DNA of 64,000 nt from Octopus sinensis (lineage: Eukaryota), in NCBI RefSeq assembly GCF_006345805.1, contig NC_042997.1, positions 41,354,001-41,418,000 on the forward strand, in the 5' to 3' direction. Made by a program: the position numbers and the translations under genes. This document shows positions 5,160 to 61,944 of this stretch, in pieces. The first letter of the stretch is position 1; each line of letters starts with the position of its first letter. The notes under the pieces are model-generated. The model worked only from the letters and a program-made list of their open reading frames with translations. It was not told the DNA's origin and did not search any database.

Positions 5160-7130
5160 ATCTATGTGATACCAGAGCGGCATCATCAGCAAACTTAGTG
5201 ATGAGGTGAGGCTGTTTAATGAACGCATCTTGAAATCAGTGAGGAAAACGATTGGCTTGAAGGCAGTTGGGATGTCAAACGAGTGCTGGAGAACATGTGA
5301 AATTGTCAAAGCAGGAAAAGAAAGGGATGCTATCCGCAAAAGAGTGGGGATTCACAAAAATGAGTTCCGGGTGCAAGATGAGAAATTGAAAGGGTTGATC
5401 AAAGAAAGAAAGCTGGAGATTTGGCAAAGGAAGGTAATATCTATGAAAGGAACAACACAAATGTGGAGAGTTCTGCGCAGTCTGACTAACCCATGTAGAG
5501 AAGACCCAGCAGGAATAATCACAGAGGCAGTGAAAAAGTATGTTACTCATCTTGAGAAGGCGAATGGTTTTGTGAGGTACTACCAGTCTGCAAGTTCCCT
5601 CAAGATTATACAAAGAAGACAGAGGCATGAAAGGTATAACAAATGGTTTTCTCAATAAGCACCAAGATGACTCTGAAATAGGCAAAGAGTTCACTAAAAG
5701 CGAGATCACAGCAGCAATCAATAGTCTGAATCCTTCCAAAGCAGCGGGTCCAGATTATATTCACCCACACCTTCTGTATCACATTGGGAGCAATGCCCTA
5801 AAAGCTCTAACAGACATCTACAACAAGTCCTGGGCCTCACTCCAAGTCCCGCAGGAATAGCGCAATGCAGACGTATGGCCTATGCTCAACCTGGGGAAAA
5901 TCCCGAACCAATTTTCCAGTTATAGGCCGATCTCACTTACCTCAGTAGTGGGCAAAGTGATGGATTGCGGTACATCATAGAAAGTTACAGGCTCTTAACC
6001 GAAGATCAAGCAGGTTTTAGGCCGAGAAGGAGTACCGAAGATCAAATCCTCAGATTGTCCCAGAAGATTAATGATGGCTTCCAACAGAAACCAATGGCAA
6101 GAATGGTGACGGCGTTGATTGATTTCTCAGAAGCATATGATGGGGTTTGGTGGGATGCTTTAATCAATAAGATGGCAAAGAAGGGAATTCAAATACATAT
6201 CATCAGAAGGACCCATGCGTGGCTGCCGAACAGAATGAACTGGGTTTCGTATGAGGGCAAGCGAAGCAAGAAGCTGGTATTCAAGCAAGGTGTACCTCAG
6301 GGTTCGGTGCTTTCTCCGCTACTTTTCCTGCTCTACATTGATGACTTGGCCGATGAAATGCAAGACCTTAGCATAAGCATTTTTGCTGATGATGTGGCTT
6401 TGTGGAAACAGCACCCAGGCTTGGCTATTGCAGAAAAGGCATTACAAGGCAGGTTAAACAGATTGGCAGAGTGGCGTGCTAAGTGGAAAATGACGATTTC
6501 CGTCCCAAAGTCAGAATGTACCTTCTTCTCGACCAACTCACATGAAGCAAGCTGGAGACCTAACCTAGAGCTAGAAGGCAACCAGTTGAGTTATAACCCA
6601 ACCCCAAAGTTTCTCAGGGTCACATACGACCACCAACTCACCTTTACCGCCCATACAAACATTGTTTGCAACAAGGTGAAGTGACAGGCCACAGCTATAT
6701 GCAGATTGGCAAATACAGATTGGGGATATGATAAGGAAACTCTTCAAGCTACCTATATCACAGTAAGAAAATCCATTATTGAGTATGCAGCGCTACCTTG
6801 GACGCCTTGGATCTCGAACACAGCCATGGAGAAATTGGAGGCGAACCAGCGGTATGCCGGTCGGGCAATTACTGGTCACGTGCACACCACATCCACGGGA
6901 GGTGATGTTGGCCAAAGCAAACCTACCTCTGATTGCAACTCGTACAACCCAGCTAAGCGTTATCACTCTGGAGAAGTCATATCAAGTCGGCCAAGATAAC
7001 CCTCGCCAGTTAATTGCGGAAAGGGAAATTCAACAGTGAACGAAGAGTTGGAGAGAGAAAGCCAAGGAAGCATGGTCCTCCCGATTCGAGGAAAGCAAGC
7101 CACAAAAGCTGACCATAAACATCACTGAAA
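5160..7130 (+). mobile_element. decayed I/Ingi/Jockey-group LINE reverse transcriptase
   Basis: KAAGPD, QAGFRPRRSTEDQ, GVPQGSVLSPLLF, FADD; in-frame stops. Confidence 0.85.
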
Positions 7131-13844: not shown

Positions 13845-14026
13845 TCAATTAATATTGTAAGAATCCTGTAAAACTTTTAGTCCATGGTGTCCTAGCATCA
13901 CTCTTCCCACAAGAACACTGCATTTGTATATTCTCTTTATTCCGTGACGGTCAGGAGTAGAATAGGTATCATTTGCAGAATAATGGATGTCACTGGCAAA
14001 ATAAACACCTTCACCATATGCTGTGG
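13845..14026 (-). CDS. last detectable PARP exon with triad Tyr (ATAYGEGVYFASDIHYSANDTYS...VLVG...QDSYNIN*), ending early
   Basis: ttcttag acceptor; in-frame TGA at 13845-13847. Confidence 0.9.
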
Positions 14027-32000: not shown

Positions 32001-35000
32001 GGTGTCATTGCTGTCACTTTTGTGTCCCACTTGACAATGCAGTGCATTATGTATAGACCCAGGTGTAGGACTTGTGTGAAGAACAAGTTGAACAAAACAG
32101 GGTGAGCACACAGCCATGTTTTAGGCCATTGAAGATGTCAAAAGAGTTGGTGCAGTGAGTATTGCAAAAAACATATCCGGTTATGTTGTCGTGAAAGAGT
32201 CTTGTCAGTGGTCCTATCACCTCGCACCTGTCATCAAGGCTGGACTGGAACTACTGCTGGTACTTGGCTGATAGGAGTCTGGCCATGCTGAAGGCTGGTC
32301 TAATGAGCTCTCAGCCATTGTGGTGTTCGGGAACTACACAGATGTTGAGCTTGGCTCTTATTAGTTTGTGGTCAGTCGAGCACTCTGTCCCATGCATTCT
32401 CCTGGTGATGAGGATGTCACTGCTATCACGCTGTTTTGAATGCAGATGTGTCCGTGATGTTTTATACTTATCAGCCAGCAGGAAGATGATGTTGGTAATC
32501 AGCAGGTTGTGCTCGGCGAATTTGCTCGGCAACTGAAGACCATTGCTATTCATTTACACAACTCCATACTTCCATCTAACCCTTCTCCACCACTCTTTAT
32601 CCTTGCCAACAACAGCATTGAAGTACCCTAGTATTATAAGCTTGTCAGTAGCAGGCATGTGATGTAGCACAGTGTCCCAGTCAGCACAGAACTGCTCTTT
32701 GATCTCTTCTGAGCATGAGATTGTAGGGTCATACCCACTCATGACAGGCACGAAGTGTTTGTGGCTGATAGGGAAGTAGAGTTTCATAGGCTTTTCATTT
32801 ACACCTGTATGAAGGTTGGGAGACTGTTTCAGGAGACAGGACTTAATGGTTTCTCCAAATACATATATTCTCTTCTCATGTACAGTCTTTCCTTTCCAGA
32901 AGAAAGTGTAGCTGCTGCCTGATTCTGTCAGGGACCATTCCTCAGTCTAGATTGCTGCTAGGTCGATATTGTATCACCACAATTCTTTGGCTAAGAATGA
33001 TCCTTGTAGCAATGGTTAGGTCTTTCTTTCTCCGTTTGAATTGACTGCAAATGGCTAAGTCTGTCAGCTGCGAGTAGTTGACCAGATCTGTTCAGGGAAA
33101 GCTTTCTTTAAGGCACTTTTTCTAGACCCTTATCTTACTAGGGTGTGCAGTGTGGTCCTAATAACGCTGCTCAGTCACTTAGGTTGCTGTTAAATTTTCT
33201 GATGTGTAATGCAATGACAGCGACCACTGGTCTGCTGGTCTCCTATGTGCAGGCTTGTGACTAGAACTCCGAGCACTTATCTCCACCTGCAGTCTTCATC
33301 AATGGTCTACCTCACCACAGGGTATGAGATTGACTGTTGGAAGGTTGAGAAGCACAGACACCTGTGCATGAAATTGTTGTAAGTTTGGAAGCCATTACAC
33401 AAAGATAATTGCACTCTCTCATCAAGAAAAAAATACTTGAGTCAGTGGCATGGAACATCGCTATGGTTGGAGACCGTTTCTGCAGCAGGGGATGACCAGA
33501 GGCCCATAGTGATTCATCATGCAGCATGCACCCTACAAAACCTGCTGGTACTGTCAGTCCTATGGAATGTGATTAACCACCTCCCACAAGAGTTACTAAC
33601 CCTCCCTGATATAAAGAAATTACACATATGTAAATACAAAAATATACAAATACAAAAATATAACAATATAATAGAATATGAAATAAGAATACAAAAATAT
33701 CAAAAAGAAAAATGCTAAAACTATCAAAATATAAAAGGGGTGCATAAAAATATAAATATAAATGTATAAATATAGAAATATGAAAAAGAAGTTTTGAAAA
33801 TACGCAATTCAGATATACTTTCATGCACGTGCACACACACACAAACCAGACATACATATATACACATTATTGAATGGCCATTGTCTACTCATGAGATCCT
33901 TCACCTTTTCGCAGGTTGAATTTCCCATCCTACAGGGTATCCAACAAATACCCAGCAAGCTCAGTGTAGTGGCCAGTTTAGTCACTGACCATCCGACCAT
34001 GTGATACGTTGTACTGCGTTACATGTTACCAGTAGCAATTAAGTGTGACATGACATAATTTGAATATACATTTAAGATAAATAAAAAGAAAGTATTTACC
34101 TGATGATGCAGCTGAACTACCTGTTGTGTTTCCTTGGAAATATTCATCAAATTTCTGTTAGAAGTAAACAAATAATTTATCATCACTCAATCAAAAACAT
34201 AATTTCATAATTAATTTCTGTTAATTTCAATGCAATGCTTTTATTCATTGCTTCTATCATGAATGTTGTTTTAAATTTACATTTCTATTCACTGTATTAT
34301 AAAATAAACTCCTACGATGGACAGGGTTTGGAATATTCTGTCGTTCGGTGAGGAATTGTTACTTAAAGAATAAGAAAACATTATTCATGGAATTGTAATT
34401 GCTTTCGAGACTCCATGTTATGTCCAAGCTTCAGCTTAAGTCTTCATTATTTTCAAAACTGATTAAAACCAAAAGAAGAACATTTCTGTTGAAACAGACT
34501 GGCTTTGAGTAAATTCCAGTGAATTACTGGTATGTCAACAGTGCTTTACTTCAATGCTATATATACTGTCCTACAGAGTATATCTGCAGATGTGTACCCA
34601 ACACTGGAGAAAGAAGAAAAGGAACTGGTCCAGCCAAACAATTTTTTCTGTCCCCAACACATATTGTATACAGAAAGTGTATGTATGACCCTCAGTTTAT
34701 ACACACCCGTCTTACTATACATACAGAATATAGTTGTATACAAACAACGTACTTACATTAGTCTATATGTACAAATATAGTCTATAGATGTTTACATTAG
34801 TCTGTATATACAGATGCTGTATATCAACACTAGACATTTCAAATAACAACTCTGACTATTACACACTTCTATGCACAATGAAAAGATATGAGAGATAAAC
34901 TATTATGATTTGTTTCTTTGCTTTAATTTTTGCATTATTCTATTCATCTCCTGCTTGTGTTTGTATCATGTTGAAACAAACCCATCTTTAATTTAATTTA

Positions 35001-38000
35001 ATTTAATCCACCATCATCAAAGTTTCTCTCCTAATGCCTCATTTCCTCATTTAATTATTAACGTCAATGTAAATATATATCTCTGTTATTGTAAATATAT
35101 CTCACCTCTCCTCTATCTCCATTACTTCATCAGCTGTGGAAATGTGCAAATCCCATCATTTCATCTTTTCCTTACTCATGATGTGCCCATCCGCTCATGC
35201 TCTCATTACCTACATTTCTTCTGTACTGGAACCCCTCCCAACAATCCTTCTTCTGCCCTCCCCACTTCCTTCCCTTCATAGTTGCCTCTCATCCATATCA
35301 CTGCAACACTAATGTCGTACTTTCTATACTTTGCACCAAAATGCAGAACCTATCAGTCCGTTAATTGATTAACTAATTAGTTATTTTCATATGTTCATTA
35401 TTGTATTAACAATGCTTTTATAGCCCTCACTTGAGGCAGATGCAGCAAGTATAAGATAAATGAATAATGGCAGATAAAATGCATAGACAATTGATATGGC
35501 ATGCCTGGTGGAAAACATTTGCTGAATCCTTCCTCCCAGATGCTGAATGTCATTCTCTTTCTCCCTCTTACCCCCTGCCCCAACCTCCTGAAGTTCCCTA
35601 CAATTGGCTTTGTCAATGTAGACACATTGAAAGCTAGGTCTGTTGAGATGTTCTAACAGAGGTGTTTCGATGTGTGCTGCCTTCAAGAAGTAAGGTGGAG
35701 AGGAGCTTCGTCCATATACCTCACAGGCAAAATACATATCTATAAAATTCTCTGGGAAAGCATCAGCGATGGGGTAGGTGGAGTAGTCATACTTCTAGCT
35801 GAGAAATGGGTGGATAATGTAGCTGAGATAGTCAGAGTGTGTGTTTGGGTACTTGAGCTCGGAGTAGAGTTGTATGGCAACAGTTATTTCTGCCTATGCC
35901 ATTCAAATTGGTCTGCCAAATGAACAGAAGGATTGCTTTTATGATATTCTTTGGCAGATCATCAACAACTTTGAATGATCGGATATTTAGAGATGTCCTA
36001 ATTGAAACTTTTAACATGAACCAGGAAGAGATAGAGACATGTAAAATAGAGGACAGCTAGAAGTTCTTACGAGACAACTGGAAATGAAGGATCCAACACT
36101 TAACAATTGTAAGGAAGTTCAGGAGAGTGGAGTAGGGTGTAAGATGGAGAAGGAGAATGACATGCAGCATCTGGGAGGAAGGATTTGGCAAGCATTTCCC
36201 ATCAGGCATGCCATATCAGTTGTCTATGCATTTTCAGTGAAGCATTTAATGAAAAGAAGGGGAGTTACAGACGTGTAACACAGAAGATACAGGGAAGTTC
36301 CCATGAATCAATTTACTGAGATCTGCAGACCAAGTTTTGTGGGTGGTGTCAAATCTGAATTAGACCTATGGTAGCATGGTGTTGGAACAGTGTAGTAGAC
36401 AGGGCCATTAGAGTGAAGAAAGAGGCCTGGAAGTGTGATGGTAATATAGAGAAACATATGAGCAGGGAAACAAGGAGACAGGTATACTCAGCAGGAAGTA
36501 GAGAGTTTGTCAGTTCTTTCTATTGCGTGAGGGCTTGAGGTGTTTTGTATGTGAGGAAAAACCGTGATGTTGTAGGAGAGAATTATATTTGGAACAAGGG
36601 CAGTAAATGATCAGTTCTATTTCTTTTCTTTATTGTGGAATATTGGTTTTGGTAAATTCCAAGAATATCAACATCAAACAACAAATAAATCAACCAACCT
36701 TTACTATTTCTGTGTCTTGAGGATAAACCATGAAGTAAACATCTTTGATCTGGCTTGAATTTTGGTTTGAGTAGTTTTTCACTGCTTCAGACATTGTTCT
36801 GGGTAGATTTTCAATGGGGTACTTCAATGTTCCAGCTCCTAATATAGGAAATGCAAGGCTTTTTGCTCCCATTCTCTCAGCAGTTTCCAGACAAGTCGTT
36901 ATTATTTGAGTCATGTTTGCCAAAATCTAAAAAAAATAATTGTTTAGTAATTGATAATGAACATTTTATGGAACTATTTCCAAATTCTTCTTACAGGGAG
37001 AAATCATTAAGTTGTAATAAATATATTCTTTGATTAAGAAATTTCCCACATATTCCGATATGAGCCTCGAAAGGAGAGTAAAAGGACTCGGGGGCAGTTT
37101 CTGAAGGACCCGTACGGTTTTACTAAGAAGCTGTTCACTGAACCGAAGAGTGGTAATTTATCGTGCACTAAAGAAGAATTGGATGCTCATATTAAGGAAA
37201 CCTACAGTGATCCGCACCGTAACCAGCCGCTGCCACCTCTACATGGGCTAAATCATCTCTCAGGACCTGATATTGAATTCCAGATTGGGGACATCAGGGA
37301 CAGAGAGGTGAATGACTTCGTAAGAAAGACTAGAGCAAAGAGTGCCCCAGGAGGTGATGGCTTCTCATATAAAGTCTCACAAGTACTGCAATCTTCTGAG
37401 AAAGAAGCTCTTTGTCCTACTCCGACAACTGTGGCGCGAGGAGACTATAGTAGAGGATTGGTGTAAGGCAGAAGGTATATACCTGCTGAAAGAGGCCAAT
37501 GCAAAGACCATAAAACAGTTTAGGCCGATATCCTTATTGAATGTGGAAGGCAAGATCTTTATGGGAATTCTGTCGAGGAGAACAGTGACATATTTACAGA
37601 GTAATGGATATGTTGATGAATCTGTTCAAAAGGCCGGGATCCCTGGATGTGTTGAACACTGTTTTTCGATTTGGAAAGCGATCCAGGACGCCAAACAAAA
37701 CAAGAAAAGTCTGAACGTGGTATGGTTCAGTGCCACATGAATTACTAATAACAGCCATGGACCACTTCCACATTCCTAACAAAGTGATCAAAATAATGAG
37801 GATGTACTATGACAGTTTCGAAATGAGGTTTACAACTGGAAATTTTACAACAGATTGGCACCGATTGGAGGTTGGCATTGCTGCTGGCTGTACAATATCT
37901 GTCACGTGGTTTATCTTAGTCATGGAGTTGATTTTGAAAGGTGTAGATTTTTCGTAACAAATCGCCCATGTACAATCGCCTAAGAAAGCCTTCATGGATG

Positions 38001-41000
38001 ACGTGACACTTTAGCTACAGATAAACAAATCATGCAGAATGCCCTCTTGAGATTAGACGAACTTGTAAGGTGGTCAACGATGCGATTTAGAGCAAAAAAG
38101 TCACGTAGTCTGACATATGTTAAGGGAGAGGAGAAAGAATTTAAGTATCGAATATCTGAAGGAAGCATTCCAACAGTCAAGGAAGAGCCCGTCAAGAGCT
38201 TGGGACGAGTATACGCTGGAACATTGTCAGACAGAAGTCGTGGGATTGAAATTATGAAACAGGCCGAGGCTGGGTTATCAGCGATTGATAATTCGAAGTT
38301 ACCAGGTAAATATAAAATTTGGTGCTTGCAGTTCGGCTTGTACCCGCAACTTGCATGGCCACTTTTAATATACGAGGTAGCATTGTCACGAGTTGAAATC
38401 ATTGAACAAAAATGTAATGTGTTCATTAGAAAGTGGCTAGGCCTACCTTGTATGTTGAACAGTTCAGCTCTTTATCTTAAAAGAGGTTCGTTGCAGCTAC
38501 CAATAGCATCAATAGTTGAAATATATAAGCTGGGGAAGATACGGACGGTCATAATGCTGAGAGGATTGAAGGATATGGAAATCAGGCGTAACCCACCAGA
38601 GGTGAAAACAGCCAGGAAGTGGAAAGCAGAGGCAGAAACTGACAACATCTTTTCTTCTCTTATACCCAGAGATATGGTGGAAGCAACGCAGAACCATCGG
38701 AAAGGATTTGGTTTTGGCGCAGATCAGTTCAGACTGTTTGCAAGCATGATGCGGAGTGAACGCAGATCTGTTGTTAGCAACAGCGTCAAAACAAGAGAAG
38801 CAGAGAGAAGAGAGCTTCATTTGATCCGATGTTTTCATCAAGGTCAAATGACGAGATGGGAAGAACATGTTGTTGAGAGGAAGGTAAGTTGGGATGAGAT
38901 GTGGAAGTGGACAACATCTCAGCTGAGTTTTCTGTTTCATTCATCTTATGATGTTTTGCCATCAACTACGAATCTAGTAAGATGGAACGTCTCAGAGAAT
39001 GACATCTGCAAATGTGGAAAGGTCGGTACACTAAAACATATTCTTTCCAACTGTTCATTAGCATTGAACAGGTATACATGGAGGCACAACTTGGTCCTTA
39101 AGGTTATCTTAAATGCTATAAAGAACCAAATTCATCTCAACAACACTGAGAAAAAACCGTTGAAAGTACCATCTAGAGATTTCATTACCTAAGTGCGACC
39201 AGGTCAGTGGATCTGTTTCAAGAAGATCATGAAACTTCCTGAGAGAAATGGAAAGTGGAACGGCTAGTGGGAGGTAACTGCAGATTTACCTGGGTGCCAG
39301 TTTTTCTTTCCCATCCCAGTTACGAAAAAACCAGATATTTTGATGTGGTGTGAAAGAAAGTTGTAAATATAGTCGAGCTAACGGTTCCTCATGAAGATAA
39401 TATGGACGCCGCTCGGGCTCAAAAATTGAACCGTTATGTAAACATCCTCGAGGAATGTGAAGACGCAGGCTGGAAAGCAGAACATTTTCCAATGAAAGTC
39501 AGTTGTAGAGGGTTTGTTGGACACAGCGTGAGATGACTGTTATTATCGTTAGGCCTAACTCATCATAAAGTCAATGCCACCATGACTGATATCCAATCTA
39601 CAGTGGAGAAGGCTAGCCACTGGATTTGGTTTAAAAAGAGACGATGAGCGATGGCTAGAAGGATATTAAGTTTAACTTTATAACCAGCTGATCTAGCAAT
39701 CGGTGTGCATTGATGCCGTCGAGAGGTAGGCCCCGAAACAGCGTGCATTCTCTCCTGATGACCCCATACACTTGCTGGCTTCCGATATACGGAGCTTTTG
39801 ACTGGTAGCACTTGCATGTGCAAGTTGTTTGCAAGACATATTTAGTTGTTGCAAACTGAAATGGTCTATGATTTACAGATTAGAATAACATTTAAACAAC
39901 ATCAAGTGATTACTAGATTCATAGACGACGTGATCATTGGATTAACATAGATCATGTGACAGAAGGATCAACATAGATCATGTGATAGAAGGAAGCCTGT
40001 CTGAATGAACATATGGATGCCATGAATAGAAAGAGAAATGTTGTAAGATTAGGTGGATACACAGTGTAATTGAAGTAGGCTCTTGTAATTAATGGAAACA
40101 ACAACAGGTAATAAGAGAGATTAATGATTCTTTACAAGAGGGAAATCTGAGTGAGAACACATTGTAAAATGCAGCAATAGAGCCCACAAGGTAGGACAAC
40201 ACAGAGAACCGCCTGGGATGCAGTGTTTGGGATACAACATCCTCTACACTGCACACAAGAGACTGTATTTTAATGTAATAGTTTGTTCAAGGAATATCTA
40301 CAATACAATGTATATCAATCAATTTCGAACTGGATGTTAGCAAGCATTAGGAACAATTAGAATGGTTGGTGAGGACAAAACTGTCTCATGGAATATGCTC
40401 CTAACATTGGCTATTTGATTCGTAATCAGTTGCCTATCGTCCATCACCATGTGGAGGAAAAGGTCAGTTTTCCTCAATGGTGGCAGTTGCCTATCTTTCC
40501 AGTGGCCATTCCGAGAATTCATGATCTGGAAACTATAAGGAATGCTACAAGTCCAGACTGTCACACTGTAGCCCATACTGTACATCAGTGGACATCAACA
40601 TACATGCTACTGTCTTGAAGCAGACGGAAGTGTTGTATGACTGGAAAAACACATCTGTGGATTGTGCATAGTTTTATGGACAATTCCGTTCATGCCACAG
40701 GGATGCTGGATCAATGATAATCTAGGGTTGTACAACAACTCTTTCAATAAATCGATATAATATGATTGATACTTACTGAATCAGATGAAGTTTCATCCCA
40801 GGGAGGTAATACCAGATGAAATACATTCTTACAGTTGAGGTTATATCCTTTAGTAATGACTATTTCAAATGTAGAAATACCTTGAGGATATTTCTGGTTA
40901 CATTCAACTTGTATCTCTGGACCAGCAGCAAGGAGAATATATTTGGAGATAGCACCAATGTTAAGCTGGAGGTGTTTATTGGTGCTGTTAATGATGACAT

Positions 41001-43500
41001 CAACCTACAAAAGAATTTAATGGTAAACAACTAAGGAACATTCAGTGGAGAGAAGAGAGATACATTGTTGCAGTTGATATTGTTGTTAAGAAAGGCTCTA
41101 CAGAATGGTTGTAGTAAGTTTGAGGTTGTTAAAGTTAGCAAAAGATTTCTCAAGATATCAGATGTGAAGGAAATAAAATGTTTGAGTTAGATTGAGAAAA
41201 TGTTTTAATTAACTGTAATGATTCCTCATTTGGAAATGAAATAATAATTAAATAAATAAGTTACATGAATCTATTTACTCACAGATGCATTAGAAATTGA
41301 ATCAATCATTAGGTTTATTTTGATGCCAGGATTCTTTGTCAGGGCCACATTAGTTTTGGGTATCACAGAAGCTGCTTTCTGTTGTGGATGAAGAGGGGAT
41401 GGGTTTGATGATGAGGTTCCTGAAAAGAAACAAGTATTAATTAACATGTGTGTGTGTGTGTATATATATCATCATCATCATCATCATCGTTTAACGTCCG
41501 TTTTCCGCGCTAGCACGGGTTGGACGGTTCGACCAGGGTCTGGGAAGCCAGGGGCTGCACCAGGCTCCAGTCTGATCTGGTAGAGTTTCTACAGCTGGAT
41601 GCCCTTCCTAATGCCAATTACTCCGCGAGTGTAGTGGGTGCTTTTTACGTGCCACCTGCACAGGTGCCTGGGGGGGTCCGGCATCGGTCATAATCGGTTG
41701 GAGCTTTCAACGTGCCACCGGCACGGAAGCCAGCCAAGGTGGCGCTGGCAACGGCCATGTTCAGATAGTGCTTTTTATGTGCCACCGGTACAAGAGGCGG
41801 TGCTGGCATCGGCCACGTTTGGATGGTACTTTTTATGTGCCACCGGCACAGAAGCCAGTCGAGCCGGTGCTGGCTACGGCCACGTTCGGATGGTGCTTTT
41901 TATGTGTCACCGGCACAGGTATCACAACTACTATTTCCATTGATATTTATTTCGATGTTCATCTTCATGTACTTGACTCAACAGGTCTCCTCAAGCACAG
42001 TGGGACGTTCTGGGATCCAGGGTACTTTGAATGGGCAGGGGCTATGCGAAACTGGTGCATGAAGCAGCCCGGGTCTTTGCAGTCACAGCATATCTCCAGA
42101 GATCTCTGTCCTTCGCCATTGCCTCAGTGAGGCCCAACGCTCTGAGGTCATGCTTGACTACCTCATCTCATGTCTTCCTGGGTCTACCTCTCCCCCTGAT
42201 ACCGTCAACTGTTTTGGAGTGGCACTTCTTCACACATCTCTCCTCATCCATCCGCAGTACATGACCATACCATCGCAAGCGTCGCTCTTGCACACCACAT
42301 CTGATGCTTCTTATGTCCAGCATTTCTCTCAAGGTGCTTACACTCTGTCGTGCGTGCACACTGACATTACACAACCAGCGGATCATGCTAGCTTCATTTC
42401 TTTCAAGTCTACGCATGTCCTCTGCAGTCACAGCCCATGTTTCACTACCGTGAAGCATGGCAGTTCGCCCACATGCATCATACAATCTACCTTTGGGCCA
42501 TCCCTGTGACATTCTGTGTAGAGGCCCTTTGTCGCCAGTAGGGGTAGGAGCTTTCTGAACTTTGCCCAGGCTATTCGTATTCTAGTGGTGATACTCTCTG
42601 AGCATCCACCTCCACTACTAACTTAGTCACCCAGGTAGCGGAAACTGTCAACTACTTCTAGTTTCTTCCCCTGGAGTGAGATGGAATATGTTTTCTGTGT
42701 GTCTGTGGTGTCTATTGTCCCTGTGCATCTGCTGCATATGAAAGCTATCATATCAGTTAATTTCCCTTTAATGTTGCTGCACCTCTTATGCATCCATAGC
42801 TTACATTGGGTGCATCTTATGGAGTTTCTACCTACACCTTTCCTACAGATCGAGCAGGGTCACCTGCCCGAGGGTGTGTGTGCTGAGTTCGCCTTTCTGC
42901 TTACTATAACTTTGGTCTAATATATATATATACATGCTTATACATAAAATATTAGGAAAAATACACCTTTTATCGATTCAAATGAACAATTAAGTTACAC
43001 CATCTAGAAAATTGCATACCATAGAAAAGTTAAAATTAAAATGACAATTAAAAAGTAAAAATTAAGTAAATTACAAAAATAATATAATGTATATAACAGG
43101 TAATATATATACACACACACACCCACACACACACACACATATATATATAATATATATATATACACACACAATATTAAATGTTCTACTATATTAAATTGTA
43201 AATTGAAAGATTTGTCCTTCAATGTATGATGAGTAAAATTTCATAAAGTCCATATTTGAAAAAGAGAGACTCTCCTGTGTTGAGGTTATAAATGACAGAA
43301 TACAAACGGACAACTACTGAGTCTGTTGTCTGATCTTCAACTGATTAAGTCTAATATCTCACTGATTAAATAGATATTAAGTTTTATCATACAGGAGCAA
43401 TTGGTTCCACAAATCAAAGTGAAATGGTTTCATTCAAATGTTGGAATATCCTTTGTTCAATGTTGTATTTTCCAAAAATCAAAGCATGTGTCAAACTCTG

Positions 43501-43546
<46 letters not shown>

Positions 43547-46421
43547 TAATACAGTCCATACTTGAAAAAGAGACTTTCTTGTGTTGAATTTATAAATGAT
43601 AGAATACAAATTGACAACTACTGAGTCTGTTGCCTGATCTTCAATTGATTTAGTCTAATATCTCACTGATTGACAGTTAAATAAATATCAAGTTTTATCA
43701 TACAGGAGCAACTGGTTCCACAAATTCAAGTGAAATTACTGGCCTTGTGCCAAAATTTGAAACCAAAATTCCAGTGATGTTTATGGTCAATAAAATAAGT
43801 ACCAGTTAAGCACTGGGGTTGATATAATTGACTTAGCCACTCTCCTGAAATTGCTGGCCTTGTGCCAAAATTTGAAACCAAAATTCCAGCAACGTTTATG
43901 GTCAATAAAATAAGTACCAGTTGAGCACTGGGGTTAATGTAGTTGACTTAGCCACTCTCCTGAAATTGCTGGCCTTGTGCAAAAATTTGAAACCAAAATT
44001 CCAGCAACGTTTATGGTCAATAAAATAAGTACCAGTTGAGCACTGGGGTTGATGTAATTGACTTAGCCATTCTCCTGAAATTGCTGGCCTTGTGCCAAAA
44101 TTTGAAACCAAAATTCCAGTGATGTTTATGGTCAATAAAATAAGTTCCAGCTGAGCACTGTGGTTGATGTAATTAACTTAGCCACTCTCCTGAAATTGCT
44201 GGCCTTGTGCCAAAATTTGAAACTAACATTCCAGTGATGTTTCTTGTATTTGTTATAATTAATAGAGATAGTCTTTACTTAGTATCAGTTAAATGTTGAT
44301 TATATTTTTCTGTTTGCTAATGTATTATAATAATGACATTACTTTGTCTTCAAATACTTTTCTGTCTTTACCCACTGAACTCCCCAACTCACCCCTAATC
44401 CCTCACCAACGAAATGATTTTATCTGTTTACTTTTTCATAATTCAGTTGTGCTGGATGTTTGTAGAATGCAACATCAACTGGAAGGTGTGAAGTTAAATG
44501 TTCAACCATTCTGGGAACCATCTGAAGAAAACACCATTTCAAGACATCAAGTTCATGACTATTTACTACCTTCCAAGTTCCATCTGACTTTCTTAAAGAA
44601 ACATACATATATATAAGCAATGTAACATATCTGGAATGGTACAACAATGCAGAGTGGACTATAATAACTGTTAGAAATAATTGAATTATTCATGGTCTAT
44701 AATTTTGGATTATAAAAATTCCTACCTCAGAGATTGCTAGGAACTAACGGAGTCCCTATTATAGTTGGTTTTCTTATTCTTCTAATGGTTACTGAAATCG
44801 GTTGGAAGCGTTCTTGTAATAGTTTCATGAAGTTCTTTCTGGAATACCTCAGGAGAAGTGTGTGAGGATTGTCATGTCTTGAACTCGTGTGTGTTGGTAC
44901 ATTCATAGCACTGTTTTTCTTGTCAGTTGTTTGACCATAACCAGTTGAGCATGTCCCTTAGTGGCTGATGATATGTGCTTCTCTGATCATAAGCAGAAGT
45001 AGTGTGGGTGCATCATAGCTATGTGGTGAGAGGGATTCTTTGGGGTTTGAATAATTCACCCCTGGAGACAAGAGTGTTTCACTCAACATCCTTTAATAAC
45101 CTTTATTCAGGGACCTTTTGGGTGCGATGGACTACTTGACCTGAAGAAAATTCTAACTGGGCCCCCACCTGATAGGCCATGCACTGTTTATCTTGATAAG
45201 AGATAACGATGTTGTGCACATATGGTTGTGATGCATGATCCTGGTGTACCCTTAACAGATGGGTAGAAATGATGTGGATACTGCGCTTTGTATATTTGTA
45301 CCCCATTGTCACTTTGATGGCATTTGCTGCTCTCTCATTCAATAATAATAATAACAATAAAAATAATTGATGATGATGATGATAAGGAAAAAAAAACAAA
45401 AGAATTTACCTGATGATACATCTGAACCATCTACTGACATTTGTTGGAAATATTCTTTAAATCTCTGTTAAAAGTAAGCAAATAATTCATTATCACTCAA
45501 TGAAAAAATAATTAATTTCTGCTAATTACAATGCAATGTTTTAACTCATTGTTTCTATCACAAATATTGTTTTAAATTAATATTTTCATTTATTGTATCA
45601 TAGAATAACTTCCTATGAGGAAGAGGCTTTTGAATATTCTGTAGTTTGGGGAGGAATTTTTATTTACAGAATAAAAGGAAATGAAATTTGCTTGTTTAAG
45701 TGACTGTAAAAAATTATTCATGGAATTGAAACTGGTATCAAGATTCCATGTTATGCCCAAACACCAGCTTAATAATGACAAACCGATTTTACTTAATTCC
45801 TCATTACTTTCAAAACTGATTAAAACCAAAAGAAGAACATTTCTGTTGAAACAGACTGGCTTTGAGTAAATTCCAGTGAATTACTGGTATGTCAACAGTG
45901 CTTTACTTCAATGCTATATATACTGTCCTACAGAGTATATCTGCAGATGTGTACCCAACACTGGAGAAAGAAGAAAAGGAACTGGTCCAGCCAAACAATC
46001 TTTTCCCGTCCCCAACACATATTGTATACAGAAAGTGTATATATGACGCTCAGTTTATATACACCCATCTTGCTTACATCCATCTATGCATAGACAATAT
46101 AGTTTACATTACTATAAAAATATATATATACTGATATTCTATATATATATATATATAGACAAGACATTTACATTAGTCTGTACACACACATCTTGTACAT
46201 CTATTATATAGATATGAGTGTATATGGTTCTGTATGTGTGGTTAGCCCTGAAAGTCCCTGAAACGATGTATCCTCAAGAAAAAACGAATTTGATATTCAA
46301 AATCTGCATCCCAATGAATGGTCATCCATAAATAATAATATGAAAATATAATTTGCAACGAGAACTCAACTACAAATGTCTTTCTCTCTATTTGTTACCA
46401 TGAATCTCTCTCTATTATTTT

Positions 46422-46453
<32 letters not shown>

Positions 46454-46455
46454 CC

Positions 46456-46487
<32 letters not shown>

Positions 46488-49400
46488 TGTATTATCTCTC
46501 ACGTATTGCTTTCATACTGTTTAAAACAATGTCTTCTAAAGTTTACTTCCGTTGTATCACAGCTTCTATGCACAAACCCTGTTTTTTCATTGCTATTCTG
46601 ACCTCGTCTGTAGAATTCATATTTTTTACATCCAAATCATTTTTGAAGACTGCAGAATGAATGATATAATCAGATGGAGCAATGTCTGATGAATATGGTG
46701 GGTGGGGCATCGTTTCCCATTCAAACTGCTCCAGCCTTTGGAATGTCATTCTTGCTGTATGTGGCCAAACATTATCCTGATGGAAGAACACCTTTCGTCT
46801 TCAAACCAAAGATGGTCGTTGTTCTTCTAGTGCTGACTTAAACTGCTCAAGCTGCTCACTGTAGATCTCCTTTGTTATTGTTTGGTTTGGGTTTAAAAGT
46901 TCAAAGTGGACTTAACCTTTCATATCTCACCAAACTGATAACAACACCTTATATGGATGAAGACCTTCTTTCTCCTGGTGTATCGGTCTTTCTCCTTTCC
47001 CTACACACTTCAGTACTTGACATTCTTATAGAGAACCCATTTCTTGTCACCAGTCGCTATTCAGTCCAAAAAAGATTCATTCATGAGATGTGACAGCAAA
47101 GAAGAGCACACCTTCACTCTCAGTGCATGATTAGACTCAGAAAGTTAGTGAGGAAATCATTGACACCATTTGCTGTTTGCTGACTTTGTCTGGTGGCATG
47201 CAGGTGTCGATGAATGGTTGAATGACCAAATACAAGCTTCTCTGTTAGTTCCTTAACAGTATGATGGGATTTTGTTCCACCAGGCTTTGCAGGACATCCT
47301 CATAGAGCTCTACAGATCTTCCAGAATGAGGGTTGTCTTCTAGGCTGTAGTTTCCAACACAGAATTTGTGGAACCACCATTGACACTGGCTTATACTTAT
47401 TGTCCAATCCTCATATACTGTATTAATATTCCTCACACTTTCCATTGTCTTTATGCCGAATATGCTCCTTTGTAACTTCCATTGTAGCTTTGAAAAAATG
47501 ACTGTTAAAATTGAACTACACTCTTCAAAATTTGAATTAAGAATAATTCAAAGGTAAAATTACTACCTGCTTTTATAGCAAGTTGATGCAGGTACTATTT
47601 TTTCCCATCCCCCTCCGACTTTCAGTTCATGCAATGGAAAAAATCACATTATTTATGGAAAAGAAATGTGTCTGCATGGGTAATGGCTCAATTGCATTTA
47701 ATGATGCTGCAAAGAGAGAGACTTGGAGATACCACTATGAAAGGTTGTCAAATGAAGAGAATGAATGGGAGAATGAGAGTCTGCCAACAGAGAGACCAAC
47801 TATCTAAATTTACAGTACCTTGGTAGATAAAGCAATTAAGGGTATGAAGACAGGGAAAGCCCAGACCCATCAGGAAACACTGCAGAGATGCTTAAAACAT
47901 CTGGCAGTGTCGGCTATAGCCTAGTCACCCATATAGTCAAGCAGGTGATACATGAAGGAGTCATACCCGATGACTGGTGTAGCAGCATAATAATCAACTG
48001 CTACAAAGATAAAGGTGACACTTTAGATAGAAATAATTAGAGAGGTATCACGTTGTTGGATCAGGTAATGAAAGTCACATAGAGGGTTGTAGCCCAACTA
48101 ATTAGGGAGAGAGTTAGTTTAGACAAGATACAGTTTGGGTTTGTGCCAGGGAAAAGCACCACTGATGCTATATTTCTGGTAAGACTGCTGCTGGAGAAAT
48201 ACCTAGCCAAAAATAAACCTCTGTACCTGACTTTCGTTGACATGGAGAAAGCCTTTGACAGGGTCCCCTGATCACTTATCTGGTGGTCAATGCGGAAACT
48301 GGGGATAGATGAATGGTTAGTGAAGGCTGTACAAGCCATGTGCAGGGATACTGTCAGTAAGGTGAGGGTTGTCAACAAGTATAGTGAAGAATTCTGAGTA
48401 GGGATCCACCAAGGACCAAGTCCCTAACTCCATTTTATTCATCATAGTCCTCCAGACAATAACAGAGGAATTCAAGATAGGATGCCCCTGGGAGATCCTT
48501 GATGCTGATGATCTTGCTCTTATAGCTGAGTTACTATCAGAACTAAAGAAGTTTCAGGTGTGGAAGTAGTGTCTAGAATCAAAGGGTCTTAGAGAGAATT
48601 TCGCAAAAACTAACGTCTTAATAAGTAGGAAGACAGACAAATCACAAATCCATTCAGGTAGATGTTCTGCTTGATCTGTAGAAAAGGCATCGGTAGAAAT
48701 TCCATAAGATGTACCCAGTGCAAGCTATGGACACACAAGAGGTGCAGCAATATCAAAGAAGGCTAACTGGGAAGATAGTTTTTGTGTGTGCCAAATGCAG
48801 AGGGGCGATAAACACTGGAAATGTGCAGGAAACAGATTCCATCACATGCCAGGTGGAGAAACTAGAAGTAGTTCATAGCTTCTGTTACCAAGGTGACCAA
48901 GCCAGCATTGAGAGCAGAACTTCTTGAATGAGAATACCCCAGGCAAAGTGCAGAGAGCTCCTACCTCTGCTGGTAACAAAGGGCCTCTCACTCCAAGTGA
49001 AAGGTAGACTGTATGACACATGTGTGAGAACAGCCATGCTACATGGCAGTGAAACATAGGCTGTGACAGTTGAAGACATGCATAAGGTCACAAGGAATGA
49101 AACCAGTATGCTCCACTGGATGTGTAATGTCAGTGTGGATACACAACAGAGTTTAAGAACCCTGAGAAAAAAGTTGGACATAAGAATCATCAGATGTGGT
49201 GTGCAAGAGAGACGACTGCACTGGTATGGTCATGTGGTGCAAATGGATGAGGATAGCTGTGTGAAAAAGTGTCACACCCTAGCAGTGGAGGGTACTTGTA
49301 GAAGAGGTAGACCCAGGAAGACATGGGATGAGGTGGTGAAGCATGATCATAAAATGTTGGGCCTCACAGAGGTGATGACAAGCAACAGAAACCTTTGGAG

Positions 49401-52400
49401 ATATGCTGTACTTGAGAAGACCTGGCAAGCCAAGTGAGACGATAACCATGACCTATGCCAGTGTAACATAACCAGCCCATTTAAGAGTACCCATCAATCA
49501 TTGGCCAATAAACTGCACTTGAGGAGACCTGTTGAGTCAAGTGAAATCATTGTTATAGAGGATGCCAATGCTGCCTGATTGGCAGCTGTGCTGGTGGCAT
49601 GTAAAAAGCACCATTCGAGTGAGGTTGTTGCCAGTGTTGCCTGATTGTTCCCATGCTGGTGGCATGTAAAAAGCACCATTTGAGCTTGGTTGTTGCCAGT
49701 GCCACATGACTGGCCCCCATGCCAGTGGTACATAAAAAGCATCCACTACAATCTCGGAGTGGCTGGTATTAGGAAGGGCATCCAGCTTCAGAAACCTTGC
49801 CAGATCAGGTTGGAGCCTGGTGCAGACTTCTGGTTTGCCAGTCCTCAGTGGAACCTTCCAACCCATGCCAGCATGGAAATGAGACATTAAACAATGATGA
49901 TGGTGATGATGATGAAGCTGATATTCCACCCATCTCTGCTATTGATGCTCAAACACAGAGTAGGGTTTGCTGACCCCTGTTACTTTGTTGAACACTTGAC
50001 CATATCAGATTTTATATTTTGGAGATATCTACACTCCAACAGGGGGTTGAGTTCCACTCAGTTACATTGATGTTCTTGGAAAAGACACAGAACAAGAAGC
50101 AGAGTAAAGGGGGAGGAGGCGGACAGAGATTATTGGTGTGGAATTGTGAAATGTGTCTTGATTGTGGCAGCTTGGAAGAGGAGGAGGAAGGGGAGGAGGA
50201 AAAGAGTGAAAGGAAGACAGACAGCACTGATTTCAAATCTGCTGAATCAGAACTGACTCGGGGTTAAATAAGAACAGTCAAACTGCAAAGAAGACCTTCA
50301 GTGTTACCAATTCTTGTTGAGTTGGTTTTGAATCCAATAACAACCAACAAGCAAAACATTCTTAGCTTCAAATGTTACAATGGAATATTTCAGAAGCAAG
50401 AATTTGGTGATGGGAAATAGTATAATGAAAGGATAAAGCACAAGATATAATGAACAGCCTTAAAGGTAGCATGAAGAAAGGTACCCAGGACATGCTGTGA
50501 AGTGGTTGGCATTAGGAATGGCATCCAGCCATAGAAACCATGCCAAAGCAGACACTGGGGTTTAATAAACCCTTCTGGCTCATTGGAGCCAGTCAAAATG
50601 TTGCACCCATGAAAGTATGGAACAAGGGCAGTAAATTATTATGAGGGTCATTTCTATTTTCTTTTCTTTATTGCGGAATATTGGTTTTTGGTAAATTCCA
50701 AGAATATCAACATAAAACAACAAACAATAAATACATCAACCAACCTTTGCTATTTCTCTGTCTTGAGGATAAACCATGAAGTAAACGTCTTGAATTTTGG
50801 TTTGAGTAGTTTTTCACGGCTTCATACATAGTTCTGGGTAGATTTTCAATGGGGTACTTCAATGTTCCAGCTCCTAATATAGGAAATGCAATACTTTTCA
50901 CTCCCATTCCCTCAGTATTTTTCAGACAAATGGTTATTATTTGAGTCAAGTTTGCCAGAATCTAAAAAAAATAATTGTTTAGTAATTGATAATGAATATT
51001 TTATTAGAGGAAGGAATTGTTAAGTTGTAATTAATATATTCTTTGATTAACAAATTCCACACAAAATTTGTTGTTCTAAACAGAAATGTTTTACAGATTT
51101 GAATAGTATTAAACAACTTCTAGTGATTATTGGATTAACAGATCATGTGGTCATTGGATTAACACATCATTTGACAGAAGGATCAACACAGATCATGTGA
51201 TAGCAGGAAGTCTGGTCTGAGTGAAGATATGGATGCCGTGAATGGAAAGAGAAATGTTCCAAGATTTGGTGGTTGCACAGTGTAATTCAGGTGGAATTTT
51301 GTAATTAACAAAAAAAATAATAGGGAAGAGGAGAGATTAATTATTATTTACAAGAGGGAAATCTGGGTGAGAACATACTGCAAGAAGCAACAAAACCACC
51401 CACAAGGCAGGGCGCCACAGGCACAAAAGATTCTACACTGCACACAAGAGACTATGGTTGAGTCAAAATGTTCAGGGAATATCTACAATAGAGTCTACAT
51501 CAATTTCAAACAACCAGAATCCATGCTTTGGAAATTGTACAGAATACCACAACACCAGACTGTCACACTGTAGCCCATACTGTACATCAGTGGACATCAA
51601 AATACATGCTACTCTCTTGAAGCAGACGGAAGTGTTGTATGACTGGAAAAACACATCTGTGGATTGTGCATAGTTTTATGGACAATTCCGTTCATGCCAC
51701 AGGGATGCTGGATCAATGATAACCTAGGGTTGTACAACAACTCTTTCAATAAATCGATATAATATGATTGATACTTACTGAATCAGATGAATTTTCATCC
51801 CAGGGAGGTAATACCAGGTGAAATACATTCTTACAGTTGAGGTTATATCCTTTAGTGATGGCTATTTTAAATGTAGAAATACCTTGAGGATATTTCTGGT
51901 TACATTCAACTTGTATCTCTGGACCAGCAGCAAGGAGAATATATTTGGAGATAACACCAATGTCAAGACAGAGATGTTCATTGGTGCTGTTAATGATGAC
52001 ATCAACCTACAAAGGAATTTAATGGTAAACAACTAAGGAACATTCCATGGAGAGAAGAGAGATACATTGTTGCAGTTGATATTGTTGTTAAGAAAGGCTC
52101 TACAGAATGGCTGTAGCAAGTTTGAGGTTGTTAAAGGAAATAAAATGTGAAGGAAATAAAATGTTTGAGTTTGATTGAGAAAATGTTTTAATTAACTGTA
52201 ATGATTCCTTATTTGGAAATGAAATAACAATTAAATATAAATAAGTTACATGAATCTATTTACTCACAGATGCATTAGAAATTGAATCAATCAATAGTTG
52301 TATTTTGATGTCAGCATTTTCTCCGGATGCCACATTAGTTCTGGGTGTCATAGGGGCTGCTTTCTGTTGTGGACCAAGAAGGGAAGCGTTGAATGATGTG

Positions 52401-55400
52401 GTTCCTGAAAATAAACAATTAAACATTTTTCTCTCTCTCTTAAAAGAACTACTTTATTCCATATAAACAGTAATGATATTCCTTTCTGAAAATAGGATTT
52501 AGCAAGAGAATACATGCTAACTTGTAGTCACCCCCCCCTCCACACACCTTTTATATAGCGACAAGGCTATATAACGTTATTTCCATCTATTTCTTCTACC
52601 AAATGGACTAAAAATACATTGAAGAACATACTTGAAACTTTCAAAGTCTGAAAACAGTGAAACTGATTAGTAAAATGTGATCTTCCACCTCTTATGAAAC
52701 GTTTTTGCTTAAAGACTATGTTGCAAATTACGGAAGTGCATGACCTAGGGTTTAAGACGAAAAGACATCGACAGTAAGACGGAAAGACAGAATAGGGAGA
52801 AAATAATAAGGGTCTATGATGATAATACTCGCAAAAATACAATGAAACGAGGAGCAAGTTGAAAGCTTAAAATCTCTTATCTGAAATTTTTCATCCTCTG
52901 AGAATCGTGTTTACAGCCAGGGTTAATCAATATATATATATATGTATATATATATATAAATATGTATATATATATGGTGCATTTTAAAACCTTTCTTGTA
53001 ATTTTTGTTTCATGTATATATCACTCATATGGCAGTGTTGTCTGCTTCACACAATTTACCTGCTTACCACATCACATGACTCAGGCTGATGGTCATGTGA
53101 GCAGTAATTTCTAACAGGGTAACCTGTTCAAGGAAAGAAACTTGGTTATTCAGTTGAAGAAGGCTTCCAGAGCTAAATGGCCTCTCGTAAATACTTTAGA
53201 GTCAGCCAACGCTATAACTCTTGGTTCGACATTATTGGACATAAGAAAATAAAACAGTTATTTCAAGAAATTTCTCTTTAAAGAATGATAAGTAGAAAAA
53301 TGTAAATCATCATAATCATCGTCATTTAACATCCACTTTCCATGCTGGCATGGGTTGGATGGCTTGACTGAAAGTGATAGGCTGGAGAGCTGCACCAGGT
53401 TCCAGTCAGATTTGACACAGATTCTACAGCTGGATGCCTTTCCATATGCCAACCACTCCAAGAGTGAAATGGGTGCTTTTTATGTGACACCAGCATCGTC
53501 TACGATTTCATTTGGTTTGATGAGTCTTCTCAAGCATGGTAAATTGCCAGAGGTCTCAGCAACTTATCATCTCTGTGTGGATCAAAGTTTGTAAGGTACT
53601 TTTTGTGTAACACTGGCATAAGCCACAACTACAATTTCACTTGGCTTGATGGGTCTTCTTAAGCACAGAATATTGCCAAAGGTCTCAGTCAATAGTCATA
53701 GCCTCCATGAAGCTCAATGTTCGAGGATCATGCTTCACTACCTCGTCCCTTGTCTATCTTGGGTCTATCTCTTCCACATGTCCCCTCCAAAGTGCAGTCT
53801 TCTCTCTTGCACACCACATCTGATGCCTCTTGTGCACCATTTTTCTTTCCAGATGCTTACACTCTGCCATACATGCACACTGACATTGCACATCCAGTGA
53901 AGCAGAGTGCCTTTATTTCTTTCAAGCATTTACATGTCCTCTGCAGCCACAGCCCATGTTTCACTGCCGTATAGCATGGCTGTTTGCACACAGGTATCAT
54001 ACAGTCTACCTTTCACTCTGAGGGAGAGGCCCATCATTATCAACAAAGGTAAAAGCTCTCTGAACTTTGCCCAACCTAATCTTATTCTTACAGCTATGCA
54101 CTTGGAGCTTCCACTTCCACTACTAATTTGTTCACCTAGATAGCAGAAGCTGTCAACTACTTCTAGGTCTCCCTCACAGGCATTTGATGGAGTTTATTTT
54201 CTGTACATTTCTAGTGCTTATTGTACCTACACACAACAACTATCTTCCTGGTTAACCTTCCTTTGATATTGCTGCACCTTTTATGTGTCCATAGCTTGCA
54301 CTGGGTTCATCTTATGGAGTTTCTACCTACACCTTTTCTGCAGATCAAGCAGGGCCATTTACCTGAAGGGATTCGTGATTTGTCAACCTTCCTACTTGCT
54401 AAAACTTTGTTTTTTCAAGATCAACTCTAAGGCCCTTCGATTCTAGACCTTGCTTCAATGCCTGAAACTTCTTTAGTTCTGGTAGTCAATCAGCTAATAG
54501 AGGAAAGTCATCAGCTTAGAGGAGCTCCCAGGGACAGCCTATCTTGATTTCCTCAGTTACTGCCTGGAGGACTATGATGAATAAGAGGGGGCTGAGGTGA
54601 ACCTCTACTTCTACCTGGAATTTTTCACTATACTTGTTGCCAACCTTTAACTTGCTGACAGCATCCCTGTACATGGCTTGAACAGCTCTCACCAACTACT
54701 CATTTATCCCTAGTTTCTGCAGTGACCTCCAGATAAGGGATTGGGGGACTCTGTCAAAAGCTTTCTTTATGTCAATGAAGGCCAAGTACAGAGGTTTATC
54801 TTTGGCTAGGTACAGAGGTTTATTTCCCGCAGCTGTCTTACCAGAAATATAACGTCAGTGGTGCTACTCCCTGGCACAAACCTAAACTGCATCTCGTCTA
54901 AACTTACTCTCTCCCTAACTATTTGGGCTATGACCCTCTCCATGACTTTCATCACCTGATCCAACAATTTGCTAACTCTCCAATGTCTGTTTTTTTTGTG
55001 GGGGTGGGGACACTTTATACCTTCATATTAATTAGAATATGAACAAAAGTCATGTTTACAATGTATCAGATAAATAATTATAATTATCCTTTGTTAGGGA
55101 ATCACAGAATGAGACAAGAATATTTTATCAACAGCCATAAATTAAACATCATCATCATCCTTGATTTCACATCCATTGTTCCCTGCTTGCATGGGTCAGA
55201 TTAGTTTATTGAGGCAGACTTTCTATAGCTGGATGCTCTTCCTGATGCTGACTCTCACCTGTTTCCAAGCAAGGTAATATTTCCCCCTGGCCACACGAGG
55301 TTTCCACAGAAGACAGGAAACAAACAACCTCACTTGTATGCTGGAGATGCTTGTTTACAGCCATCACGTGATGTGAAGACAAGAGTACAAACACACACAC

Positions 55401-61703: not shown

Positions 61704-61944
61704 TATTTATACATATATATATATATTTATACATATATATATTTTATATTTATACATATATATATATATTTATACATATATATATATATATATTTATACA
61801 TATATATATATTTATACATATATATATATTTATACATATATATATATATTTATACATATATATATATTTATACAAATATATATATATTTATACATATATA
61901 TATATTTATATATATATATATATTTATTTATTTATATATATATA
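61704..61944. repeat. AT-rich compound microsatellite (TATATATATTTATACA-like units)
   Basis: read directly. Confidence 0.95.

What the first reader, a model, noticed from the sequence alone, without database searches (positions are those of the whole stretch)
34080..52430. Macro-PARP carries a tandemly duplicated four-exon macrodomain cassette
Seen: exons of 137/228/228(217)/55 bp and flanking introns occur twice. The module starts and ends in phase 1, so it can be duplicated or skipped without changing the frame. Established: PARP9/14/15 macro-PARPs are antiviral genes with variable macrodomain number in vertebrates. Inference: this is a lineage-specific macrodomain expansion in an invertebrate immune-like gene, which could yield isoforms with different or chimeric macrodomains (e.g. 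A1-B1 spliced to C2-D2 stays in frame).
Basis: partly seen in the sequence, partly recalled or inferred. Interest (0 to 1): 0.75.

Follow-up and report, generated by a model that had tools for sequence, protein, structure and literature searches.

The report
Decaying octopus PARP14 copy, swappable readers
This octopus immune-type gene does carry its ADP-ribose-reading domain twice as a four-exon block, but one block is frameshifted and the enzyme end is deleted, so it is likely a dying copy of a large gene family whose members carry zero to six such blocks and appear to swap them.

Summary
The two four-exon blocks are real, with GT-AG ends. The unit is 648 nt, phase 1 to phase 1, and encodes a PARP14 macrodomain-2-type reader. 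It is not a haplotype misjoin: two other contigs hold both blocks in tandem, and an O. vulgaris gene model uses exons of both. But this copy is damaged. Exon C1 lacks 11 bp, so the full path stops at 45459. A 2.8-kb deletion removes the last 31 codons of the ART domain. The 5' exons lie inverted 60-80 kb upstream. The likely second haplotype kills block 1 by different lesions. With MD1 the gene has three macrodomains, the ancestral number, so it is no expansion by itself. The expansion is family-wide: 22 catalytic exons and at least 38 blocks on this chromosome, up to six per gene, no MD3 found, strong recombination. Automatic gene models of three paralogues show skipped or chimeric blocks. 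No splice form of this locus could be shown. This scan already noted the family on other DNA of this genome (e1-9503992, e1-9573272). My nine literature searches found no description of it.

The parts
55692..55871 (-). Exon U (180 bp, phase 1-1): last exon of the MD1-type macrodomain. The preceding exon T lies just outside the window, at window-continued 67309-67061
   Evidence: MD1 clade
52268..52404 (-). A1 (137 bp): linker and first strand of block 1; 'first-position' A type, 97.8% identical to an A exon 164 Mb away
51779..52006 (-). B1 (228 bp): N-terminal half of MD2-type macrodomain, open
50745..50961 (-). C1 (217 bp): C-terminal half of macrodomain with an 11-bp deletion near 50791, a frameshift; splice sites intact
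45410..45464 (-). D1 (55 bp): last helix and linker; holds the premature stop (45459) when C1 is included
41283..41419 (-). A2 (137 bp), open
40777..41004 (-). B2 (228 bp), open; Pfam Macro E 5.8e-11
36699..36926 (-). C2 (228 bp), open
34100..34154 (-). D2 (55 bp), open; 'last-position' D type also ending paralogues P0002 and P0009
28688..28869 (-). Exon E (182 bp), acidic linker after the blocks
17689..18058 (-). Exon F (370 bp); KH8/WWE-like region by position only (Pfam did not call it in P0019/P0020)
   Evidence: domain label inferred
17135..17268 (-). Exon G (134 bp), start of ART domain
16241..16418 (-). Exon H (178 bp), ART domain with the WHGT histidine
13845..14026 (-). Truncated terminal exon; a 2.8-kb deletion at 13854-13858 (5-bp microhomology) removes the last 31 codons and gives a stop at 13847
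51516..52421 (-). Likely gene-conversion tract between the blocks: 97-99% identity over about 400 bp of B and the following intron, against 74-87% in A
   Evidence: sliding windows
37060..39830 (+). About 2.8-kb insertion that lengthens the B2-C2 intron (3850 bp against 817 bp); resembles a non-LTR retroelement remnant (recalled resemblance; Pfam found nothing in the three ORFs tested)
43731..44605 (+). Inverted 0.9-kb fragment of the family's own 5' part (115-bp tandem array plus start of the large KH exon) inside the D1-A2 intron; 88% to the full exon region

Best explanation
The window holds the 3' half of an octopus PARP14-like gene with two tandem copies of a phase-1 four-exon macrodomain-2-type block, of which the first is frameshifted, and it is most likely a decaying member of a birth-and-death family in which this block is likely multiplied and reshuffled by unequal crossing-over and gene conversion. 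Mechanism by steps. SHOWN: the 648-nt block is frame-neutral; A|B, B|C and C|D junctions are phase 0, so any exon-to-matching-exon jump between blocks keeps the frame; the family has many genes and blocks; exon histories conflict; this copy has an 11-bp frameshift, a deleted ART C-terminus and out-of-line 5' exons. INFERRED: frame neutrality lets recombination add, remove or mix blocks without killing the gene, and lets splicing step over broken exons, so dead blocks accumulate; the block binds ADP-ribose but does not hydrolyse it (by likeness to PARP14 MD2); this copy lost its promoter and RRM/KH exons through a 63-kb staggered-break inversion and makes no working transferase.
For: Frameshift: C1 is 217 bp, whereas 34 of 38 C exons recovered on C1 are open; no other of the 40 scored C-exon matches shows the 11-bp gap; one 73-nt short-read contig of run X2 matches the deleted form with 0 differences. 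ART truncation: against the paralogue at C1:40.83 Mb the window lacks 2811 bp; 15 of 18 evaluable terminal exons are complete, 2 frameshifted, 1 deleted, which is the window's (one more was cut by the fetch edge). Inversion: in C10081 large exon, T, U and blocks run on one strand; here the RRM and large exons lie on the other strand, with the same ~1-kb intron piece at both ends (97%); C9482 is collinear across the first junction. Second haplotype-like contig C9482: A1 nonsense, B1 226 bp, C1 deleted, 1-bp loss in E, while A2-D2 are 99.6-100% identical to the window. Family: 30 catalytic-exon matches, 22 on C1; 38 B exons on C1, a lower bound because searches scored 40 of 66-69 candidates. Recombination: neighbouring-site incompatibility 0.16 against 0.286 permuted, p = 0.0005, 36 blocks; A tree rejects a local clade, B and C do not. 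Domain type: best PDB match PARP14 MD2 (3Q71, E 2e-29; MD1 3Q6Z 2e-12; 4ABK, recalled as MD3, 8e-12); all 13 octopus block domains form one clade (SH-aLRT 99) outside the MD3 clade.
Against: Block 2 and exons T, U, E-H are open with good splice sites, and paths that skip C1 stay open for 479-835 codons from a Met in exon T, so a truncated protein is possible. An annotated model on C9482 uses D1-A2-B2-C2-D2-E (P0022), and several paralogue models also start at that T Met. The X2 contig has only 27 letters on one side of the deletion, under the tool's 31-letter rule, and X2 may be the assembly's own sample. The 1-bp lesions (large exon; C9482) could be long-read errors. A scaffold gap at window-continued 151236 lies beyond the inverted piece, so two truncated head-to-head copies are an alternative to one inversion. 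Expression of this copy was not measured.
Confidence: 0.7

Rival explanations
1. The 3' half is still expressed from an internal promoter and would give a catalytically dead, single-reader protein (block 1 skipped, or A1-B1 joined to C2-D2), a PARP9-like regulator or decoy.
For: Open paths of 695 codons from the T Met; block 2 nearly identical and open on both haplotype-like contigs while block 1 is dead on both; O. vulgaris model P0020 keeps T, U, A2, E, F at 96-100% and also ends without the terminal exon.
Against: No annotated protein of the window itself appeared or 63 (weak); no promoter or transcript assigned; exon E has a 1-bp loss on C9482; the shared block 2 may simply be a recent common haplotype.
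Confidence: 0.18
2. One reading: a working gene with a recent local duplication that yields one- and two-reader isoforms.
For: True in structure for the paralogue on C10081, where both blocks are open and the 5' exon is in line; B and C trees allow a local origin.
Against: C1 frameshift, ART deletion and inverted 5' half in the window copy; A exons are old types.
Confidence: 0.08
3. Assembly artefact: the two blocks are mis-joined haplotypes, or the lesions are sequencing errors.
For: The region has near-identical paralogues, haplotigs and nearby gaps; unplaced contigs carry 1-bp indels.
Against: Both blocks in tandem on three contigs and in the O. vulgaris model; blocks differ by 5-26% with different intron insertions; the 2.8-kb deletion has a clean microhomology junction; the 11-bp deletion appears in short-read contigs.
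Confidence: 0.04

Closest known systems
PARP14 (human; molluscan, cnidarian and lancelet PARP14-like proteins)
   Same: RRM, KH, MD1, reader macrodomains, ART order; clustered paralogues, gene gain and loss, fast evolution (PMC4038475, PMC13224862, passages read); block is MD2-like.
   Different: No MD3-type domain among the octopus domains placed; MD2 is repeated 0-6 times per gene as an exon cassette; about 20 or more genes on one chromosome against four in lancelet (PMC13224862). 13 of 14 non-octopus homologues scanned have 3 or fewer macrodomains. The window copy is broken.
PARP15 and PARP9 (partial PARP14 duplicates)
   Same: Arise from partial duplication; PARP15 repeatedly lost or shortened by a macrodomain (PMC4038475).
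   Different: They are vertebrate or mammal lineages (PMC10221186); the octopus copy is an independent truncation.
Oyster protein P0038 (Saccostrea echinata model)
   Same: Five macrodomains, none grouping with MD1 or MD3: an apparently independent amplification of MD2-like readers.
   Different: Two PARP stretches, so possibly two fused gene models; its domains do not group with the octopus clade.

Membership tests
PARP14-like macro-PARP | Tandem macrodomains N-terminal to a PARP-type ART domain | tested here: met
   Pfam Macro and PARP exons in order on one strand
PARP14-like macro-PARP | MD1 of hydrolase type | tested here: inconclusive
   Relatives' domain falls in the MD1 clade, but here its loop-1 part lies in the inverted, frameshifted large exon, so no whole MD1 is encoded in line
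PARP14-like macro-PARP | MD2 | tested here: met
   block 2 open, block 1 broken
PARP14-like macro-PARP | MD3 | tested here: not met
   0 of 18 octopus macrodomains placed fall in the MD3 clade; only 6 octopus proteins were placed
PARP14-like macro-PARP | N-terminal RRM and KH domains in line | tested here: not met
   present but on the opposite strand 60-80 kb upstream
PARP14-like macro-PARP | Complete ART domain with H-Y-(L/I) triad (triad positions recalled) | tested here: not met
   last 31 codons, with the third triad position, deleted; complete in 15 of 18 evaluable terminal exons
PARP14-like macro-PARP | ADP-ribose binding, mono-ADP-ribosylation, antiviral induction | not testable with these tools
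   no assay or infection data
Symmetric-exon cassette used in alternative splicing | Unit length a multiple of three with equal flanking phases | tested here: met
   648 nt, phase 1-1; not met by copy 1 (637 nt)
Symmetric-exon cassette used in alternative splicing | Observed skip or chimeric junctions at this locus | tested here: inconclusive
   spliced B-C, C-D and A-B joints seen at 90% likeness cannot be assigned to a paralogue

The most novel reading that the evidence does not exclude
Octopuses have turned PARP14's MD2 reader into a combinatorial immune repertoire: about 20 genes carry arrays of a frame-neutral cassette whose ADP-ribose-pocket loops diversify, and both DNA recombination and cross-cassette splicing (A>B', B>C') assemble new hybrid readers, while broken exons are spliced around. 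Enzyme-dead copies such as this one would persist as decoys or as sequence donors for gene conversion.
Probability: 0.2. Interest if true: 0.72.

Novelty: new variant of a known kind. Interest (0 to 1): 0.4.

Why it matters
For this locus alone, little: it is most likely a dying paralogue. At family level it offers a testable case of an antiviral-type ADP-ribosylation gene family expanded far beyond the known vertebrate and lancelet copy numbers, with MD3 apparently replaced by a recombining MD2 array. Dozens of natural MD2 variants on one scaffold would let one ask what reader macrodomains recognise beside ADP-ribose, an open point in the PARP14 review read here (PMC13224862: physiological targets of MD2 and MD3 not established).

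Tried and rejected
1) RNA evidence: no listed holder was on record as RNA. Laying four guessed-RNA runs on 34-53.5 kb was swamped by repeats, and the spliced joints seen cannot be assigned to this copy. In one search the 8 shown of 14 X18 pieces did not span the deletion; this is no evidence either way. 2) Read-depth test: contig depths are not copy numbers, so it was not used. 3) Macrodomain-specific positive selection: codon models gave B omega 1.59 (M2a vs M1a 2dL 105, 37 sequences) and C 0.60 (2dL 28, 34 sequences), but control exons were also high: H 1.15 (2dL 16, 21), terminal exon 1.44 (2dL 45, 15), U 0.91 (2dL 8, 9). NG86 gave B 0.95 and C 0.47 on 22 of 40 blocks (13 left out for missing, broken or other-length exons, 5 for internal indels). 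B 0-fold diversity (0.117) is no higher than intron diversity (0.129), and only one of three thresholds showed an excess of very variable sites (p 0.08, 0.09 in the opposite direction, 0.005). Recombination inflates these tests. 4) Mis-joined haplotypes: rejected (see rivals). 5) One search used an intron stretch by mistake and told nothing. 6) The 229-bp B exon on C10081 is an alignment-edge artefact; it is intact. 7) Literature searches found no paper on an octopus PARP14 cluster; subscription journals and octopus genome-paper supplements were not seen, nor Fig. S1 of PMC10221186. 8) No structure or complex prediction was run.
Full report
Source and setting. The window is G000:C1:41354001-41418000 in a 2.72-Gb genome. 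Close homologues are annotated Octopus sinensis and O. vulgaris PARP14-like proteins; some lie on contigs of the same lengths as C1 and C9482. The gene is on the minus strand.

Observation. Self-BLAST shows four homologous blocks in the same order. B and C match Pfam Macro, and PARP exons follow at 16.2-16.5 and 13.8-14.1 kb. The intact unit is 137+228+228+55 = 648 nt, phase 1 at both ends and phase 0 at the three inner joints. It is not a haplotype misjoin: C9482 (98-99% collinear over about 90 kb) and C10081 (95-98%) each carry both blocks between U and E, and O. vulgaris model P0020 uses B1, A2 and B2 in order. Three versions exceed two alleles, so at least one, probably C10081, is a paralogue (inference).

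What the block is. A protein identical to block 2 but for one residue matches human PARP14 MD2 best (3Q71, E 2.4e-29). In a tree of 56 macrodomains from 18 proteins, all 13 octopus block domains form one clade (SH-aLRT 99), separate from the MD1 clade (100) and the MD3 clade (98); their link to vertebrate MD2 has support 89. So the layout is MD1 + n x MD2, with no MD3 found. With n = 2 this gene has three macrodomains, the ancestral count given in PMC10221186 (section 3.1 read), which also reports MD2 as lacking hydrolase residues and activity in humans. Reader function for the octopus block is inferred from this.

The copy is damaged. (1) C1 lacks 11 bp near 50791; with all exons the frame stops at 45459. 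The paralogue on C10081 has the 228-bp exon. A 73-nt contig of run X2 matches the deleted form exactly, with 46 and 27 letters either side; run X1 shows the undeleted letters as loose ends. (2) The terminal exon ends after 58 of about 89 codons: 2811 bp are missing relative to the paralogue at C1:40.83 Mb, with a 5-bp microhomology. 15 of 18 evaluable terminal exons are complete. P0020 also ends without this exon, which fits a lesion shared by both species but does not prove it. (3) Exon T (window-continued 67.3 kb) is the last in-line exon found up to 204 kb. The RRM exons and the large KH exon lie on the other strand at 115-133 kb, and one ~1-kb intron piece sits at both 70.4-71.3 and 133.5-134.4 kb in inverted orientation. 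A staggered-break inversion of 63 kb is the simplest reading; C9482 shares the first junction. (4) The large exon has a 1-bp frameshift in an A run, which may be an error. On C9482, block 1 is dead by other lesions (A1 stop, B1 226 bp, C1 deleted), while block 2 is 99.6-100% identical to the window's. Paths that avoid C1 remain open for 479-835 codons from a Met in T but all end at the truncated ART.

The family. The catalytic exon H has 30 matches, 22 on C1 in clusters at 40.8-41.4, 205.6-208.0 and 211.1-211.5 Mb. I recovered 38 B exons (37 open) and 38 C exons (34 open) on C1; these are lower bounds. Annotated proteins carry one to five blocks, an O. bimaculoides protein none (P0091), and two genes have six in DNA. 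Of 14 non-octopus homologues, 13 have at most three macrodomains; one oyster model has five with two PARP stretches.

How blocks move. A1's nearest relatives are first-position A exons of other genes (97-98%), while A2 ranks 29 of 51; B1 and B2 are each other's nearest after the C9482 copies. Identity between the blocks is patchy, 97-99% in intronic tracts beside 74-82%. The A tree rejects a local clade (AU p 0.021); B and C trees do not. A site-order permutation test on 36 blocks gives p = 0.0005. This fits unequal crossing-over plus gene conversion (inferred).

Splicing. Exact mapping of annotated proteins shows whole-block skips, A>B' and B>C' chimeras in three paralogues, and all five isoforms of the 205.7-205.8 Mb gene avoid its two broken exons. 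These are automatic models that must be open and may rest on mis-mapped short reads, so they are leads only. For the window copy no junction could be assigned.

Selection. Variable residues cluster in the loop after the conserved NSTN motif and in the GAG loop, which line the ADP-ribose pocket (recalled). Site models favour a class with omega above 1, but control exons do so too and recombination is strong. Fast evolution is family-wide; reader-specific selection is not shown.

Comparison with what is known. Duplication, loss, partial copies and positive selection of macro-PARPs are known in vertebrates (PMC4038475, passages), and clustered PARP14 paralogues in lancelet and sponges (PMC13224862, passages). 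An octopus mucus proteome lists a PARP14-like protein (PMC11431876, passage). Nine searches found no account of the octopus cluster. Two unreviewed notes of this scan describe the same cassette at 205-208 Mb; none lies near this window.

Verdict. Observation confirmed, interpretation partly supported. This locus is most likely a decaying paralogue (0.7); a truncated expressed reader is the main rival (0.18). The family is a new variant of a known kind, interest 0.4.

Noticed in passing
G000:C1:41425300-41488400 (window-continued 71.3-134.4 kb): Apparent 63-kb inversion with a ~1-kb inverted duplication at both ends, separating the gene's RRM/KH exons from its 3' half; first junction shared with C9482.
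   Followed up: yes
window:43731-44605: Inverted fragment of the family's own 115-bp tandem array and start of the large KH exon inserted in the D1-A2 intron; present on C9482, not at this place on C10081.
   Followed up: partly
G000:C1:40837500-40880400: Neighbouring paralogue in which T and U are followed by the F-I exons with no A-D block detected between them; O. bimaculoides P0091 also has no block.
   Followed up: partly
P0038 (Saccostrea echinata model): Five macrodomains, none of MD1 or MD3 type, and two PARP stretches: possible independent MD2 amplification in oysters.
   Followed up: partly
P0020 versus P0019, MD1 loop 1: The window-type gene reads NATN...LMEGV where P0019 reads NAAN...HMGGV, so MD1 hydrolase residues may vary among paralogues; not tested.
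   Followed up: no
P0020 residues 5-372 and 661-1028: The O. vulgaris model repeats the KH-MD1 segment twice, a second kind of internal duplication or two merged genes.
   Followed up: no
   Followed up: partly
window:2438-2861 and 4745-5159: 424-bp direct repeat at 98% identity about 2.3 kb apart, near a zinc-knuckle ORF (1327-2037) and RT ORF (5926-6684); probably a retroelement.
   Followed up: no
window:46540-47550; 25793-26661; 41460-42920, 47900-49900, 53300-55000, 61900-64000: Mariner-like transposase remnant (HTH_48), LTR-type RT/RNaseH remnant, and several copies of one LINE family fill the introns.
   Followed up: no
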